Shown here: one piece after another, positions 8,405 through 40,374 of the stretch
How positions within the stretch are numbered: position 1 is the stretch's first letter
How the letters are laid out: every line of letters starts with the position of its first letter
NCBI GenBank assembly: GCA_007376295.1
Contig: VMGB01000002.1
Coordinates: forward strand, 2,843 to 66,842
DNA: 64,000 nucleotides
Direction: 5' to 3'
From: Parcubacteria group bacterium Gr01-1014_13
Lineage (GTDB): Bacteria > Patescibacteriota > Patescibacteriia > Magasanikbacterales > GWA2-37-8
Made by a program: the position numbers and the translations under genes
The notes under the pieces: generated by a model
The model's database searches: none
Seen by the model: only the letters and a program-made list of their open reading frames with translations
What the model was told of the DNA's origin: nothing

Positions 8405-8433
8405 TTGACAAAAACCAAGAAATAGGGTATTAT
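8405..8433 (+). promoter_or_regulatory. consensus promoter TTGACA-17-TATTAT driving the GC-rich unit A
   Basis: TTGACA 8405..8410, 17-nt spacer, TATTAT 8428..8433. Confidence 0.55.
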
Positions 8434-8439
8434 AAGCCC

Positions 8440-8705
8440 TGCCTAACGATCGCTCGTCTAGGCCTACGGCAACTTTGCCGGGAGAACAGGAGGCAACGTG
8501 AACAGTATCCGCGGACCGACGAACATCAACCATGCCAATCATAACGCGAACTCGATCTCGTTCAATCTCGGCTAGCTCGACCTCGTCGACGCCGGCTCCG
8601 GCCTTGGCACAATTCCTCATTCTGAGGAGCTGAGCGCCACGGCCCCCAACCCCAGGAGGGTGACAAAGTGTCTTCGGACACCGCGTCGCCCTCCTCTTTT
8701 ATTTC
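8440..8705 (+). ncRNA. GC-rich (about 58%) self-contained transcription unit A: candidate sRNA or short-ORF mRNA (26-aa ORF with AGGAGG-GTG at 8498..8575), unclassified
   Basis: Promoter upstream. Strong terminator GGAGGGTGAC...GTCGCCCTCC with an inner UUCG hairpin plus T-tract at 8655..8705. GC content far above the flanking DNA. Confidence 0.35.
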
Positions 8706-8762
8706 ACGCTACTTGCGTGCTTTTTTTATTATGCTACACTACACTGTGTAGTATTTATTTTT

Positions 8763-17187: not shown

Positions 17188-17467
17188 TGTAGTCTGGCTG
17201 GTAAGCCTCTGGTCCAACTTAGCCGGGACTAGAGAAACATCATCAGCCAGGCAAGGGCTAGAATCAAAACGAAAGTGGTTGCTTCCAGCAGAACAATTAC
17301 TGCTGGCTCGATCTTCAGTCCCACCCGCTGCAACCACAGATGGTGGTAGCGGCGGTGTGAAAGCTGCTGATTCTGCAAGTAAGAAGGCCTGTCCTTCATA
17401 TCAATCATTTCTGAAATTCCCCCTTTAGCGATTCTTGTTGTTATGGTGAAAATTCACCAATTACTCG
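17188..17467 (-). ncRNA. GC-enriched transcription unit B: highly structured RNA of about 280 nt, or mRNA of a 59-aa membrane peptide (17229..17408)
   Basis: Consensus promoter upstream and terminator downstream. Several perfect hairpins (CCAGCAG-N8-CUGCUGG; CUCUAGUCC-N10-GGACCAGAG; GGUGAAUUUUCACC). An in-frame 59-aa ORF MIDMKDRPSYLQNQQLSHRRYHHLWLQRVGLKIEPAVIVLLEATTFVLILALAWLMMFL is preceded by GGGGGA. Confidence 0.4.
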
Positions 17468-17473
17468 ACCGCT

Positions 17474-17502
17474 ATTATACTCTAAAACAAGCCTTTTGTC
17501 AA
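17474..17502 (-). promoter_or_regulatory. perfect consensus promoter TTGACA-17-TATAAT for unit B
   Basis: Minus-strand TTGACA at 17497..17502, 17-nt spacer, TATAAT at 17474..17479. Confidence 0.6.
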
Positions 17503-29984: not shown

Positions 29985-31379
29985 ATGTCCAACCACGAAA
30001 TATGGCAAGCTGTTCTGGCAGAGCTAGAATTGTCTATTTCTAAACCAAATTTTGTAACTTGGTTTAAAAATACTGACATAATCTCCTACCAAGATGGCTG
30101 TGCTGTCGTGTGTGTTCCCAATGAATTTAATCGTGCCTGGATGGAAAAAAAATACAATCAAATGATTGTTAAATCTCTGGAGAGAGTAACCGGAAAACCG
30201 ATAAAAAAACTTGAGTATAAAATCTGTAGTATTAAAAATATCCCTGCTCAACAACCGGTTAGTCAACAGGAAAACAAAGTTGAAGAATTTTCCACTATTT
30301 CTACAAGTTCTGCTCCAAGTGAAGCAGCCGTTCCGCCGCGAATAGGTGAATTTGGTTTAAATCAAAAATATGTTTTTGAAACTTTTGTAGTTGGCGGCGG
30401 TTCCGAACTAGCTTATGCTGCCGCTCAAGCGGTGGTAAACAAACCCGGCGAAGCTTACAACCCGTTATTTATCTATGGCGGTGTCGGATTAGGTAAAACT
30501 CATCTTATCCAAGCTATTGGTAATCATATTTTAGCTGTCCGGCCCCAAACCAGTATCATGTATGCTAGCGCCGAGAAGTTTACCAACGACTATATCTCTT
30601 CAATGCGCGATGGTAGCGCTAAAAATTTTCAAAACAGATACCGCAACATCGATGTTTTACTTATCGACGACATTCAATTCATTTCTGGTAAAGAAAAAAG
30701 CCAGGAATCTTTCTTCCATACCTTCAATGACTTACACCAACAGAACAAGCAGGTGGTAATGACCTCTGACAGGCCACCAAAAGCCATTCCTGCCCTAGAA
30801 GACCGCTTAAAATCACGTTTTGAGTGGGGTATGATTGTAGATGTGGCTCCACCAGACCTAGAGACACGCATCGCTATTTTACAAAAAAAGTGTCTAGAAA
30901 AGAGTTTTGCTCTGGCCCAAAACATTTTACAAGTAGTAGCCGCCACCTTCCAACGAAACATCCGTGAATTAGAAGGTGCGTTAAACAAAATTATCGCTTT
31001 CCACCAACTAAAGGCTATGGAACCGACTCTAGAATCGGTAAAATCACTTCTTTCTAGTTTAGAAGTACGATCTATCCACCGTTCAGTCACACCCCAACAG
31101 ATTATAGATGCGGCTAGTCAGTTCTACGCGATAAATATTTCCGACCTACTTGGCCAAAGCAGAGAAAAAAAGTTCTCCTTCCCTCGCCAAATCATTATGC
31201 ACTTGATGAGAAAAGAACTTAGTATGTCTTATCCAGCCATCGGCAACGAACTTGGCGGCCGAGATCACACCACAGCTATGCACGCTGATAATAAAATAAC
31301 TCGTGAATCAGAAAATGATTTGAAATTGAAACAAGAAATAGAGTTAATAAAACAAAAATTGTATATAAACATGATGTAA
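29985..31379 (+). CDS. dnaA: chromosomal replication initiator DnaA
   Basis: 464 aa. AAA+ domain with GGVGLGKTHL Walker A. C-terminal DNA-binding helix. Confidence 0.95.
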   Translation: MSNHEIWQAVLAELELSISKPNFVTWFKNTDIISYQDGCAVVCVPNEFNRAWMEKKYNQMIVKSLERVTGKPIKKLEYKICSIKNIPAQQPVSQQENKVEEFSTISTSSAPSEAAVPPRIGEFGLNQKYVFETFVVGGGSELAYAAAQAVVNKPGEAYNPLFIYGGVGLGKTHLIQAIGNHILAVRPQTSIMYASAEKFTNDYISSMRDGSAKNFQNRYRNIDVLLIDDIQFISGKEKSQESFFHTFNDLHQQNKQVVMTSDRPPKAIPALEDRLKSRFEWGMIVDVAPPDLETRIAILQKKCLEKSFALAQNILQVVAATFQRNIRELEGALNKIIAFHQLKAMEPTLESVKSLLSSLEVRSIHRSVTPQQIIDAASQFYAINISDLLGQSREKKFSFPRQIIMHLMRKELSMSYPAIGNELGGRDHTTAMHADNKITRESENDLKLKQEIELIKQKLYINMM

Positions 31380-31660
31380 AAAGTTAACAACCTGGGGATA
31401 ACAAATGTATAAGTGTAAAAATTTATTAACTTTTCACACACTTACGAGATAAGTTATAAACACCAACTGAAAAAATAAATTTCTTTCCACACACTTTATA
31501 GATTTATCCTCAACAAGTTTTGCACTGATAAAAAAATAAAAAACGTTTAGATTACAGTAAAAAAATAGTTTTACCACCTTATCCACTCCATTATAGTTAC
31601 GATTATAATTTATAAATAAATATTTAGACAATATAACGATGCAAATAAAATGAATAAAAA
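31380..31660. promoter_or_regulatory. candidate oriC: AT-rich dnaA-dnaN spacer with at least 5 DnaA-box-like 9-mers and an A/T-rich unwinding tract
   Basis: Box matches: TTATCCCCA (reverse, 31393), TTATAAACA (31453), CTTTCCACA (31484), TTATCCTCA (31504), TTATCCACT (31578). An AT-run lies at 31530..31575. Confidence 0.5.
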
Positions 31661-31690
31661 ACCCGCTGGTTGGCGGGTAAGGTAACAAAT
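31660..31690 (-). terminator. intrinsic terminator of the GC-rich gene C
   Basis: CCCGCCAACCAGCGGG hairpin plus T-tract on the minus strand. Confidence 0.6.
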
Positions 31691-31707
31691 AACTAAATTG
31701 TGTGCTG

Positions 31708-32004
31708 CTAGCGGTGACGACCGTTGTTGACTCGCCAGTAGCTGGCGCCGCGACTCTCACGACGCAGATCGCCGTCGCGGAGCCTGGCATCCTTGCGGAG
31801 GCCGACGGTGCGCGGGGAGGTCTGAGGATTGAACTCCCTCAGGTAGATACCCCGTTCGGAGACGTCTTCCACGATGTTGTGGAAGTGGTCGTCCTCGATG
31901 TCTTCAATGAGCTTGAGGGTATGGTCGGGGATCCAGCGGAAGCGACGGTTGACCTGGAAGTTGCCTTCGGGGTCGGCGGACGCGATCATCGTATCCTGCA
32001 GCAT
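31708..32004 (-). CDS. GC-rich (about 60%, GC3-biased) foreign-looking gene for a 98-aa hydrophilic protein, inserted between dnaA and dnaN
   Basis: Codon usage (CTG/GAC/ATC/GCG) unlike the host. RBS AGGAAGG. Host-type consensus promoter and terminator. Confidence 0.55.
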   Translation of the reverse strand: MLQDTMIASADPEGNFQVNRRFRWIPDHTLKLIEDIEDDHFHNIVEDVSERGIYLREFNPQTSPRTVGLRKDARLRDGDLRRESRGASYWRVNNGRHR

Positions 32005-32056
32005 CTAGAGATCCTTCCTGTAAAAGTGTGGTTTTTAGCCAAAATGGCTGGAGCAG

Positions 32057-32085
32057 ATAATATCACAAAAACACGATTTTGTCAA
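32057..32085 (-). promoter_or_regulatory. consensus promoter TTGACA-17-TATTAT for gene C
   Basis: Minus-strand TTGACA 32080..32085, TATTAT 32057..32062. Confidence 0.6.
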
Positions 32086-32107
32086 TATATAACAATAATC
32101 TACCTAT

Positions 32108-33229
32108 ATGAAATTCTTTTGTACTAGAGAAAACCTATCTAAAGCCTTAGCGCTAGTAATCGGTATAGCTGGAAAAAGCATTAATTTGCCTATACTTAGC
32201 AATGTTTTGATCCGGGCTAGTGAACAAAAAGTGGAATTTATTGCCACCAACCTGGAATTGGCTATAGTTTCCAATTTACGGGCTAAAATAGAAGAACCAG
32301 GGATGTTTACTGTCCCAGCCAGAACGCTAAACGACTTTGTAAACCTGCTTTCTGATGAAAAAGTAGAATTAAGACTAAAGGATAATGAGTTAGAGGTGGT
32401 TAGTGGTAAGTCGGCTACAAAGATAAAAGGTACTCCAGCAGATGAGTTTCCGGTTGTGCCGGTAGTTGGAGAGGGTAAAGGATATTTAATCGATGCAGAG
32501 GCCTTTAAAAGAGGTTTAGGACAGGTATCACAGGCTGCGGCCAAGACCGAGATTCGTCCAGAGTTGGCTGGAGTACTGTTTTGTTTTAATGATGAACCAA
32601 ACACTCTTACTATGGCCGCCACAGACAGTTATCGTTTGGCTGAAAAAAAGATAAAACTATTACAAGGTGAAGAAAAGGCGAGAATAATAATCCCTGCCCG
32701 TACAGCGCAGGAGATAAATCATATCCTATCTTTGTCAAAGGGTATGGAAAATGAAAAAAATGTCCGTTTACTAGTTACTGATAGTCAGGTAGTACTACGC
32801 TGTAACGAGGTGGAGTTAGTTTCTCGGTTGGTAGAGGGGCAATATCCGGATTATACCCAGATTATTCCAAAAGAATTCAAAACAGTGGCCGAATTTTCAA
32901 CAAATCAAATTACTAAAGAGATAAAAGCGGCTAGTTTGTTTACTACGACCGGTGTAAATGCGGTGAATTTTGATTTTGACACTGCCGCTGGCGCTATTTT
33001 AATCTCTTCTACATCTACCCAGACCGGCGAACACAAATCTGAAGTTACGTCGGATATTAAAGGAGATAAAAATAATATATTACTCAACCATAGATATGTT
33101 TTGGATGGTTTAGCAAATATCGATACGGAAAACTCTTTATTGAAAGTGATTAACGCAGACAGTCCTTGTGTTTTTGCGCCGAAGGAAGATAAAAATTTCG
33201 TTTATATTGTGATGCCGATTCGGCAGTAG
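32108..33229 (+). CDS. dnaN: DNA polymerase III beta sliding clamp
   Basis: 373 aa, three-domain clamp. MKFFCTRENLSKAL N-terminus. Follows dnaA. Confidence 0.95.
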   Translation: MKFFCTRENLSKALALVIGIAGKSINLPILSNVLIRASEQKVEFIATNLELAIVSNLRAKIEEPGMFTVPARTLNDFVNLLSDEKVELRLKDNELEVVSGKSATKIKGTPADEFPVVPVVGEGKGYLIDAEAFKRGLGQVSQAAAKTEIRPELAGVLFCFNDEPNTLTMAATDSYRLAEKKIKLLQGEEKARIIIPARTAQEINHILSLSKGMENEKNVRLLVTDSQVVLRCNEVELVSRLVEGQYPDYTQIIPKEFKTVAEFSTNQITKEIKAASLFTTTGVNAVNFDFDTAAGAILISSTSTQTGEHKSEVTSDIKGDKNNILLNHRYVLDGLANIDTENSLLKVINADSPCVFAPKEDKNFVYIVMPIRQ

Positions 33230-40212: not shown

Positions 40213-40374
40213 AAAGATATTATAGCATTTTTTTCACCCTTTGTCAACTATTTGTATACACTAGTATATACAAATATATTTTAGCTGTAATTAGCTAAAA
40301 TTTCCACAGTTTATCCACATTCCCTATAGGTTATACCCAAAGTTATCCACAGTTGTATACACTAGTGTATACAA
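40171..40374. promoter_or_regulatory. regulatory hub: three paired palindromic TGTATACA operators (40171..40190, 40253..40272, 40353..40374) and two perfect DnaA boxes TTATCCACA (40311..40319, 40343..40351) plus weaker boxes
   Basis: Each operator is two self-complementary 8-mers separated by 4 nt (TTGTATACActagTGTATACAA is a perfect 22-bp palindrome). The boxes lie in the same orientation between divergent promoters. Confidence 0.6.
40219..40247 (-). promoter_or_regulatory. perfect consensus promoter TTGACA-17-TATAAT for unit E
   Basis: Minus-strand TTGACA 40242..40247, TATAAT 40219..40224. Confidence 0.6.

What the first reader, a model, noticed from the sequence alone, without database searches (positions are those of the whole stretch)
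31380..32107. Foreign high-GC gene with host-type promoter and terminator inserted into the dnaA-dnaN spacer next to the probable oriC
The dnaA-dnaN intergenic region is about 730 bp. Its left half is AT-rich with at least five DnaA-box-like 9-mers and an A/T-run, so it is a likely oriC. Its right half is a compact module of about 60% GC on the minus strand. The module has a perfect TTGACA-17-TATTAT promoter, an RBS, and a 98-aa ORF with strong GC3 codon bias utterly unlike the surrounding genes (CTG, GAC, ATC, GCG). The ORF reads MLQDTMIASADPEGNFQVNRRFRWIPDHTLKLIEDIEDDHFHNIVEDVSERGIYLREF... and is followed by an intrinsic terminator. A horizontally acquired gene lodged at the replication origin, wired to a consensus host promoter, is unusual. 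It could influence initiation or simply exploit a permissive site.
Basis: seen in the sequence. Interest (0 to 1): 0.7.

Follow-up and report, generated by a model that had tools for sequence, protein, structure and literature searches.

The report
GC-rich orphan gene beside oriC
Next to the replication origin of a low-GC Magasanikbacteria (Patescibacteria/CPR) genome sits a real, self-contained 98-codon gene with foreign, GC-rich composition. It belongs to a rare, fast-evolving, unnamed protein family that seems native to high-GC Patescibacteria, so it is probably imported cargo at a tolerant site and not a replication factor.

Summary
The 728-bp dnaA-dnaN spacer has an AT-rich, DnaA-box-bearing left half at the GC-skew minimum. 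Its right half is a minus-strand unit: TTGACA-17-TATTAT promoter, RBS, 98-aa ORF (GC 0.62, GC3 0.81 against 0.36±0.04 for host ORFs) and an intrinsic terminator.

- The gene is compositionally foreign, and most related genomes have an uninterrupted spacer of about 260-400 bp.
- It is not a one-off. Eleven divergent versions (the window plus ten other assemblies) sit at the same dnaN-oriC junction in Magasanikbacteria, so a chimera is excluded.
- The family is tiny: 25 clusters among 1.84 billion representatives. It matches nothing in Pfam, PHROGs, NCBIfam, PADLOC or the PDB.
- No actinobacterial relative was found. The other members lie in 62-65% GC Patescibacteria, upstream of rplJ, where the composition is native and the site is also sometimes empty.
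- The promoter belongs to a class the host uses elsewhere.

The protein has an acidic N-terminal half and a basic tail. It evolves about 10-17 times faster than DnaA and DnaN, yet keeps a high GC3, which is unexplained. Function is unknown. My best guess is an accessory nucleic-acid- or partner-binding protein at a permissive hotspot.

The parts
29985..31379 (+). dnaA (context, left flank)
   Evidence: 464-aa ORF. It is 90% identical or less to DnaA of Magasanikbacteria/Patescibacteria MAGs.
31380..31650 (.). Probable oriC: AT-rich, with a DnaA-box cluster, conserved across Magasanikbacteria
   Evidence: 25-26% GC. Five DnaA-box-like 9-mers. Cumulative GC-skew minimum. Conserved blocks in 8 aligned spacers, e.g. 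ACCACCTTATCCACTCCATTATAGTTACGATTATAATTTAT. Promoter-like sites inside it on both strands are consensus matches only: + 31570-31597 and - 31631-31602.
31651..31678 (-). Intrinsic terminator of orfX (hairpin 31678..31661 plus T-run), abutting the oriC edge
   Evidence: It is the only terminator-like site in 31300-32200. Every homologous cassette has an equivalent hairpin plus T-run.
31708..32004 (-). orfX: 98-aa CDS, GC 0.62, GC3 0.81. The first 58 residues are acidic (net -7) and the last 40 are basic (net +7).
   Evidence: ORF. Composition. Homologs. Core dN/dS of 0.25 against L001, and most variable columns at codon position 3. Charge. AF2 model: beta-hairpin 8-18, helix 27-51, pLDDT 67.
32005..32050 (-). 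5'UTR of about 45 nt, with the RBS AGGAAGGA (32019..32012) and a small hairpin AGCCA-TTT-TGGCT (32049..32037)
   Evidence: Sequence. The element GCCATTTTGGCC...AAAACC(G)CAC recurs in the homologous cassettes. Longer UTRs elsewhere carry an extra hairpin with weak covariation.
32057..32085 (-). Promoter TTGACA-17-(TG)n-TATTAT. The -35 hexamer lies only 22 bp from the dnaN ATG.
   Evidence: 11 of 12 match with TG. The class TTGACAAAA-N14-TATNAT occurs 4 times in the window against 0.01 expected. It is present in all 11 cassettes examined.
32108..33229 (+). dnaN (context, right flank)
   Evidence: 373-aa ORF. The homolog in locus L084 (93% identical) carries the three DNA_pol3_beta Pfam domains.

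Best explanation
orfX is a real, stand-alone, probably strongly expressed protein-coding gene. It carries its own consensus promoter, short structured leader, RBS and terminator. It belongs to a very rare, undescribed family of small proteins (about 90-160 aa) confined, as far as located, to Patescibacteria.

The family shares these features:
- a near-invariant N-terminus, M-x-Q-x-x-P-[VI]-A-[ST]-A-[ST]-P-[DN]-G ... R-x-R-W-I-P;
- a long acidic helix;
- a basic Arg-rich tail.

Its composition matches 62-65% GC Patescibacteria, where it lies between lipoprotein genes and rplJ. In low-GC Magasanikbacteria it is an imported accessory cassette. There it occupies one tolerant slot, the boundary between oriC and dnaN. 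It has been inherited, lost, diversified and probably exchanged by recombination there, while ameliorating only slowly.

Shown:
- anatomy;
- foreign composition;
- family membership and rarity;
- fixed site in Magasanikbacteria;
- presence/absence polymorphism in both host groups;
- fast protein evolution under weak purifying selection.

Inferred:
- direction of transfer (high-GC Patescibacteria to Magasanikbacteria);
- entry by recombination without a dedicated mobility gene;
- that the product binds nucleic acid or a partner through its basic tail;
- that the origin-adjacent position reflects permissiveness (a long non-coding region in a compact genome, high gene dosage) and not a role in initiation.
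For: Anatomy.

Foreign composition:
- GC3 is 0.81 against 0.36±0.04 for host ORFs, and this is the top GC window (z=4.5).

Coding:
- The start codon, RBS and frame are conserved in 11 cassettes.
- Core dN/dS is 0.25-0.56, and variable columns fall 30/23/15 at codon positions 3/1/2.
- Profile searches find only small proteins that align over the same motifs.

Rarity:
- 25 hits in 1.84e9 representatives, and 22 in the word-indexed 5.8e9 set, each on 1-3 contigs.
- No phage match for orfX and no plasmid match for the high-GC member P0009.

Same site in Magasanikbacteria: window, L001/L083, L002, L005, L006, L084, L091/92, L093, L094/95 and L097.

Empty sites:
- Most of the 80 species representatives, including L004 and L053, which are interleaved with carriers on a DnaN tree.

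High-GC homes:
- L085-90 lie upstream of rplJ-rplL, with GC3 0.87-0.96 against L10/L12 at 0.86-0.90.
- Their L10 is 80% identical to a protein named 'Patescibacteria group bacterium'.
- That relative's site is empty.

Fast evolution and mosaicism:
- dN is 0.10-0.19 against 0.011-0.014 for dnaA and dnaN in the same genome pair.
- Two allele groups, A and B, occur in closely related hosts.
- The window core is closest to P0001, but its tail is closest to P0003.

Hotspot:
- A second small gene, orfY, and small palindromic inserts occupy the same spacer in L002, L003 and L005.

Dipolar protein with a basic tail. Consistent AF2 secondary structure in two members.
Against: - No mobility gene, clean target-site duplication or terminal repeat was found. 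The only flanking repeat is a 14-nt, 86% match that overlaps promoter-like -35 elements and may be chance. The transfer mechanism is therefore unknown.
- GC3 stays at 0.76-0.95 in all Magasanikbacteria copies, although host synonymous sites are saturated between clade members. Simple 'old import plus neutral amelioration' does not predict this.
- Exclusive use of one site next to oriC in 11 of 11 located Magasanikbacteria copies could also mean a functional tie to the origin or to dnaN.
- Only 3 of about 10 presumed high-GC members were placed in a genome. The taxonomy of those genomes rests on one named L10 relative.
- No expression data are available.
Confidence: 0.55

Rival explanations
1. 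The cassette is functionally tied to the origin or to dnaN. One route is that its protein modulates DnaA, the clamp or oriC. The other is that its strong transcription, directed into oriC and head-on to any dnaA/oriC-to-dnaN transcription, tunes initiation or dnaN expression, together with a GC-rich block between oriC and dnaN.
For: - All 11 located Magasanikbacteria copies lie at exactly the oriC-dnaN boundary, in the same orientation.
- The terminator abuts the oriC edge, and the -35 hexamer is 22 bp from the dnaN ATG.
- A conserved promoter-like site overlapping a DnaA box inside oriC points towards dnaN. Its transcript would have to cross orfX in antisense.
- GC3 is retained against host mutational bias.
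- The tail is basic.
Against: - Homologs in high-GC Patescibacteria sit upstream of rplJ, not at an origin.
- Sister genomes with 90-97% identical DnaA or DnaN lack the cassette completely.
- The protein evolves about 10-17 times faster than DnaA and DnaN and differs by 26-70% among hosts whose DnaA is 90-99% identical.
- It has no similarity to any known initiation regulator or clamp-binding motif.
- Promoter matches are consensus hits only.
Confidence: 0.15
2. It is a conflict-type or selfish gene, for example an anti-phage, anti-host or addiction function. Diversifying selection and frequent lateral replacement would then explain the hypervariability and the presence/absence pattern.
For: - Deeply divergent alleles (groups A and B, 30-45% identity) occur at one locus among close relatives.
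- Tails are mosaic.
- The distribution is patchy in both host groups.
- dN/dS approaches 1 outside the conserved motifs.

Against: - No match to 5027 defence-system models or to phage protein families.
- No partner gene, as would be needed for a toxin-antitoxin pair.
- No homolog in 50,697 phage records for orfX, or in 72,556 plasmid records for P0009.
- dN/dS values near 1 for distant pairs come from saturated comparisons.
Confidence: 0.2
3. The GC-rich block is a structured non-coding RNA, and the ORF is incidental.
For: - High GC in an AT-rich genome is typical of structural RNAs.
- The whole transcript folds better than shuffles (z=-4.0 in the window, -3.1 in L084).
- A second GC-rich, ORF-less island with the same promoter class exists at 8405-8712.
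Against: - No Rfam match at E of 10 or better, except a below-threshold terminator-like Trp_leader hit.
- The ATG, RBS and reading frame are conserved across 36 proteins whose DNA has diverged.
- Permuting synonymous codons within the CDS removes the folding signal. The z-scores run from -3.1 to +1.8 (mean about -0.5), like the controls. The whole-transcript z therefore reflects mixed composition plus the terminator.
Confidence: 0.03
4. It is an assembly chimera or a contaminating high-GC fragment, or a recent transfer from Actinobacteria.
For: An abrupt GC step of about 300 bp inside a 40% GC contig.
Against: - The same junctions, dnaN-cassette-oriC-dnaA, occur in independent assemblies from ENA, Logan, JGI and NCBI samples.
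- The UTRs, promoter and terminator are AT-rich and continuous with the flanks.
- Exhaustive profile searches and scans of species-representative genomes gave no relative outside these Patescibacteria contexts.
Confidence: 0.02

Closest known systems
Horizontally acquired ORFan genes or genomic islets at integration hotspots (compositionally atypical accessory genes)
   Same: Atypical GC and codon usage. Presence/absence among close relatives. Recurrent use of one intergenic slot that also holds other small inserts. Relatives in a lineage whose composition matches the gene.
   Different: It is a single 430-bp promoter-to-terminator unit with no integrase, transposase, tRNA/attachment site or clear repeats. 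It lies at the oriC-dnaN boundary. GC3 is retained over divergences at which host synonymous sites are saturated.
Origin-flanking transcription units that modulate initiation (E. coli mioC and gidA flanking oriC; from general knowledge)
   Same: A promoter-driven transcript is directed towards the origin and stops at its edge.
   Different: No evidence that transcription matters here. The unit is absent from sister genomes and located elsewhere (upstream of rplJ) in other lineages. There is no homology.
Small accessory regulators of DnaA or the clamp (SirA, YabA, Hda, DiaA, HobA; from general knowledge)
   Same: A small protein encoded in the dnaA/dnaN neighbourhood.
   Different: No sequence or fold similarity. 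Not conserved with the replication genes. Hypervariable.
Small basic, extended helical nucleic-acid-binding proteins (nucleoid- or ribosome-associated)
   Same: Arg-rich basic tail and helical, non-globular AF2 models (pTM 0.35). Strong promoter and RBS. In the high-GC genomes it adjoins rplJ-rplL.

Membership tests
Compositionally foreign, horizontally acquired accessory gene | Base composition and codon usage far from the host genome | tested here: met
   GC3 is 0.81 against 0.36±0.04 for host ORFs. It is the top 300-bp GC window (z=4.5). It uses CTG/CTC, GTC, ATC and AAG where the host prefers TTA, GTA/GTT, ATT and AAA.
Compositionally foreign, horizontally acquired accessory gene | Patchy presence among close relatives, with an intact empty site | tested here: met
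   L004, L053, L007, L009 and others have spacers of 295-428 bp with no remnant, and they interleave with carriers on a DnaN tree.
Compositionally foreign, horizontally acquired accessory gene | Homologs in a lineage whose composition matches the gene (candidate donor) | tested here: met
   L085, L088 and L090 lie in 63-65% GC genomes, with gene GC3 0.87-0.96 against L10/L12 0.86-0.90. The L10 is 80% identical to a 'Patescibacteria group bacterium' protein. The direction of transfer is inferred, not shown.
Mobile element (IS, MITE, integron cassette, integrative island) | Transposase or integrase, terminal inverted repeats, target-site duplication or an attC/att site | tested here: not met
   The unit holds no other ORF. 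The junction alignment with empty sites shows no duplication. The repeat scan gives only a 14-nt, 86% direct match overlapping -35-like elements.
Bacterial sigma-70 monocistronic transcription unit | -35/-10 with 17-bp spacing, RBS, ATG and intrinsic terminator in order on one strand | tested here: met
   The promoter class is enriched in the window, 4 against 0.01 expected. Actual transcription cannot be tested here.
Replication-initiation regulator | Homology to a known regulator, or co-conservation with dnaA, dnaN or oriC across the family | tested here: not met
   No Pfam, NCBIfam or PDB match. The high-GC members lie upstream of rplJ. The gene is absent from sister genomes.
Replication-initiation regulator | Physical binding to DnaA, DnaN or oriC, or an effect on initiation | not testable with these tools
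   This needs biochemistry, or ori/ter coverage and transcript comparisons in carrier and non-carrier populations.
Structured non-coding RNA | Match to a curated RNA family, or a fold signal and covariation beyond composition | tested here: not met
   No Rfam hit. Synonymous-codon permutation z-scores centre near 0. The 5'UTR hairpin shows only weak covariation, with 2 compensatory pairs in 6 sequences.
Anti-phage defence or toxin-antitoxin component | Match to known defence or TA models, or a paired partner gene | tested here: not met
   PADLOC gave 0 of 36 members. PHROGs gave only isolated weak hits. The unit is monocistronic.

The most novel reading that the evidence does not exclude
Selection keeps the GC-rich cassette at the oriC-dnaN boundary because it acts there. 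In this reading it is a strongly transcribed, GC-rich unit, convergent with dnaA/oriC-to-dnaN transcription. It would insulate the origin or set dnaN dosage, or its dipolar protein would be a lineage-specific initiation modulator. That would explain both the invariant site in 11 of 11 Magasanikbacteria copies and the retention of GC3 against the host's AT-biased mutation pressure.
Probability: 0.1. Interest if true: 0.75.

Novelty: new variant of a known kind. Interest (0 to 1): 0.4.

Why it matters
Patescibacteria have small, compact genomes, and very little is known about how they acquire genes or control replication. This locus shows three things:
- a defined, reusable insertion slot at the oriC-dnaN boundary;
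- gene flow between high-GC and low-GC Patescibacteria, instead of from a host phylum;
- a small, undescribed, fast-evolving protein family that keeps GC-rich codons in AT-rich genomes.

If the GC retention reflects selection or biased gene conversion at a recombination hotspot, the locus would be a compact natural test case for those forces. If the protein or its transcription acts on the origin, it would be a new kind of initiation modulator. As the evidence stands, it is a well-characterised curiosity and not a mechanistic discovery.

Tried and rejected
- Non-coding RNA reading. Rfam found nothing. The whole-transcript folding z-scores (-4.0 and -3.1) disappeared when only synonymous codons were permuted within the CDS. 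The first attempt at that test timed out.
- Phage, plasmid or virus origin. tblastn of orfX against phages and of P0009 against plasmids found nothing, and the IMG/VR pattern scan gave no confirmed match.
- Actinobacterial donor. No relative was found outside Patescibacteria contexts in the 1.84e9-representative HMM search, the profile search of 5.8e9 clusters, or the pattern scan of 185,579 species genomes.
- Frameshifted or truncated C-terminus in the window. Rejected, because the short tail LRRESRGASYWRVNNGRHR is a recurrent tail type (P0003, P0017, P0021).
- Antisense 141-aa ORF as the real gene. Rejected. It lies in exact codon register, and the signals and substitution pattern favour the minus strand.
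- Clamp-binding motif in the C-terminal extensions of some members. There is no canonical QL[SD]LF, and the window protein lacks the extension altogether (inspection).
- Target-site duplication. Only a weak 14-nt repeat was found.
- Literature. No paper describing oriC or dnaA-dnaN inserts in Patescibacteria was found.
- Accession-based taxonomy of the high-GC contigs could not be retrieved. An L10 homology search was used instead.

Full report
**What is there.**
The window comes from a low-GC (about 40%) member of Candidatus Magasanikbacteria (Patescibacteria/CPR). Its DnaA is up to 90% identical to DnaA of MAGs labelled Magasanikbacteria or Patescibacteria, and a few of the nearest MAGs carry obviously unreliable labels.
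- dnaA (29985-31379, +) and dnaN (32108-33229, +) are separated by 728 bp.
- The left 270 bp is 25-26% GC.
- It holds five DnaA-box-like 9-mers, against 1.3±1.15 per 280-bp window elsewhere.
- It coincides with the minimum of cumulative GC skew.
- It is conserved block by block in related spacers. I accept it as the probable oriC.

The right 430 bp is a complete minus-strand transcription unit:
- promoter TTGACA-17-TATTAT with an upstream TG (32085..32057);
- a leader of about 45 nt with a small hairpin;
- RBS AGGAAGGA, 7 nt before the ATG;
- a 98-codon ORF (32004..31708);
- a hairpin plus T-run terminator (31678..31651).

The ORF is the strongest compositional outlier in the 64 kb. The 300-bp GC is 0.617 (z=4.5). 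GC3 is 0.81, against 0.36±0.04 for the 30 long host ORFs, and codon choices are opposite to the host's.

**It is a protein-coding gene.**
- The ATG, the RBS and the frame are conserved in eleven homologous cassettes.
- Between the window and its closest relatives, variable columns fall 30/23/15 at codon positions 3/1/2.
- Core dN/dS is 0.25-0.56.
- Profile searches recover only small proteins that align over the same motifs.
- The 141-aa ORF on the plus strand lies in exact codon register. It is open simply because the sense strand avoids TTA, CTA and TCA.
- Rfam finds nothing.
- The better-than-shuffle folding of the whole transcript disappears when synonymous codons are permuted within the CDS.

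**The family.**
An HMM search of 1.84 billion cluster representatives returned 25 proteins. A profile search of 5.8 billion clusters returned 22. All are 86-198 aa, unnamed or 'hypothetical', and each occurs on 1-3 contigs.

Conserved features are:
- the N-terminus M-x-Q-x-x-P-[VI]-A-[ST]-A-[ST]-P-[DN]-G;
- R-x-R-W-I-P;
- an acidic helix (IE-x-IE-x-x-H);
- GIY;
- IG-x-R-[KR]-[DA]-A;
- an Arg-rich tail of several types.

In the window protein, residues 1-58 carry net charge -7 and residues 59-98 carry +7. Two AF2 models (pLDDT 67 and 70, pTM about 0.35) agree on a beta-hairpin, a 25-residue helix and short C-terminal helices, with no compact fold. The window's short tail is a recurrent type, closest to P0003, and not a frameshift. 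Its core is closest to P0001, which hints at mosaicism.

**Where the relatives sit.**
Every member I could place in a low-GC genome lies exactly where orfX does, between dnaN (divergent) and oriC-dnaA. The loci are L001/L083, L002, L005, L006, L084, L091/92, L093, L094/95 and L097. These come from independent ENA, Logan, JGI and NCBI assemblies, which excludes a chimera.

Among 80 species-representative genomes fetched through DnaA, the usual spacer is about 220-400 bp with no GC island. Close relatives such as L004 (DnaA 90%) and L053 (DnaN 97% to carrier L091) have clean empty sites. On a DnaN tree, carriers fall in two clades interleaved with non-carriers.

The same slot also holds another small gene, orfY, in L003 and L002, and small palindromic inserts in L005, L003, L084 and L094. 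It behaves as an insertion hotspot.

Three more distant members (P0009, P0016, P0020) lie in 63-65% GC genomes between lipoprotein genes and rplJ-rplL. There the gene's GC3 (0.87-0.96) equals that of its neighbours. The L10 of those genomes is 80% identical to a protein named 'Patescibacteria group bacterium'. That relative's site upstream of rplJ is empty.

No actinobacterial, phage or plasmid relative appeared anywhere. The likely source is therefore a high-GC Patescibacteria lineage. The direction of transfer is an inference from composition.

**Promoter.**
The same class, and leader elements such as GCCATTT..GGCC..AAAACC, also accompany the gene in the high-GC genomes. One cannot say that the gene was rewired on arrival. 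Longer leaders carry an extra hairpin with weak covariation.

**Evolutionary dynamics.**
- Between the window and L001, dnaA and dnaN have dS of about 0.85 and dN of about 0.012. orfX has dN of 0.10-0.19, which is 10-17 times faster, with a lower apparent dS.
- Hosts whose DnaA is 98-99% identical carry orfX proteins that are only 41-74% identical.
- Two allele groups coexist in closely related hosts.
- GC3 stays at 0.76-0.95 in all ten measured Magasanikbacteria copies, against 0.34-0.49 for their dnaN, although host synonymous sites are saturated between clade members.
- Polarised synonymous changes show AT-ward drift in orfX, at about 40% of the dnaN rate (11/111 against 16/64, Fisher p=0.01).

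I cannot tell whether this reflects selection on GC or codons, biased gene conversion at a recombination hotspot, or repeated re-import. A specific mRNA fold is not the reason.

**Mechanism and function.**
The most likely reading (0.55) is an imported, strongly expressed accessory gene parked in a permissive, high-dosage, non-coding slot. It would encode a dipolar small protein that binds nucleic acid or a partner through its basic tail.

An origin- or dnaN-linked role (0.15) is kept alive by three points:
- the invariant site;
- transcription aimed at oriC;
- a conserved DnaA-box-overlapping promoter-like site in oriC (31570-31597, +), whose transcript towards dnaN would have to cross orfX in antisense.

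Three points weaken it:
- the rplJ-linked homologs;
- absence from sister genomes;
- the hypervariability of the protein.

A conflict-type or selfish function (0.2) fits the diversity but has no direct support. No mobility gene or clean target duplication was found, so how the unit moves is unknown.

**Verdict.**
The gene is foreign and origin-adjacent, but it is recurrent, Patescibacteria-internal and not demonstrably replication-related. It is a new variant of a known kind: a compositionally alien accessory gene at a hotspot. It has one unexplained property, persistent GC3, and an undescribed protein family. Interest is moderate.

Noticed in passing
window 8405-8712 (+): A second GC-rich island (300-bp GC 0.567, z=3.5). 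It has the same promoter class (TTGACAAAA-N14-TATTAT at 8405-8433) and a strong terminator hairpin near 8650-8700. It has no ORF longer than about 33 aa on the transcribed strand and no Rfam match. Its MFE z-score is -3.0. It is a candidate unannotated ncRNA or tiny-peptide gene.
   Followed up: partly
window 17229-17502 (-): A stand-alone 59-aa ORF with a hydrophobic C-terminal helix. It has its own TTGACAAAA-type promoter (17474-17502), an RBS and a terminator, and it lies just upstream of polA. No Rfam match in the region.
   Followed up: partly
window ~1500-2140: The densest cluster of DnaA-box-like 9-mers in the window: 9 in 280 bp, more than at the dnaA-dnaN spacer. It flanks a small ORF with a LAGLIDADG-like motif (FIAGLLTSTGSF), 30 kb from dnaA.
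   Followed up: no
window 40311-40351 (+): Two perfect TTATCCACA DnaA boxes 32 bp apart.
   Followed up: no
L003 5806-5967 (-); L002 386-538 (+): A different small gene, orfY (50-53 aa, MAY-x-V-[DE]-EF-x-KL...), of host-like composition. It has its own promoter-like site and terminator and occupies the same dnaN-oriC slot. In L002 it lies in tandem with the orfX cassette.
   Followed up: partly
L005 6290-6500; L003 5400-5490; L084 4760-4830; L094 560-600: Small palindromic or MITE-like inserts in the same dnaA-dnaN spacers of relatives, e.g. GTCATTCTGA...TCAGGATGAC and GGGCTTCGC...GCGAAGCCC.
   Followed up: no
L085 939-3856; L088 3274-3876; L090 1-1101: In the high-GC Patescibacteria, the cassette follows an array of paralogous lipoprotein-like genes of variable number, each with a signal peptide plus Cys. 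None has a significant Pfam match (one marginal Lpp-LpqN hit, E 0.004, below cutoff). rplJ-rplL there is not preceded by rplK-rplA.
   Followed up: partly
record titles (L003, L005, L006 and others): Several of the nearest MAGs are labelled 'uncultured Gammaproteobacteria' or 'Udaeobacter', although they encode Magasanikbacteria-type DnaA and DnaN. These are probably mislabelled public records.
   Followed up: no
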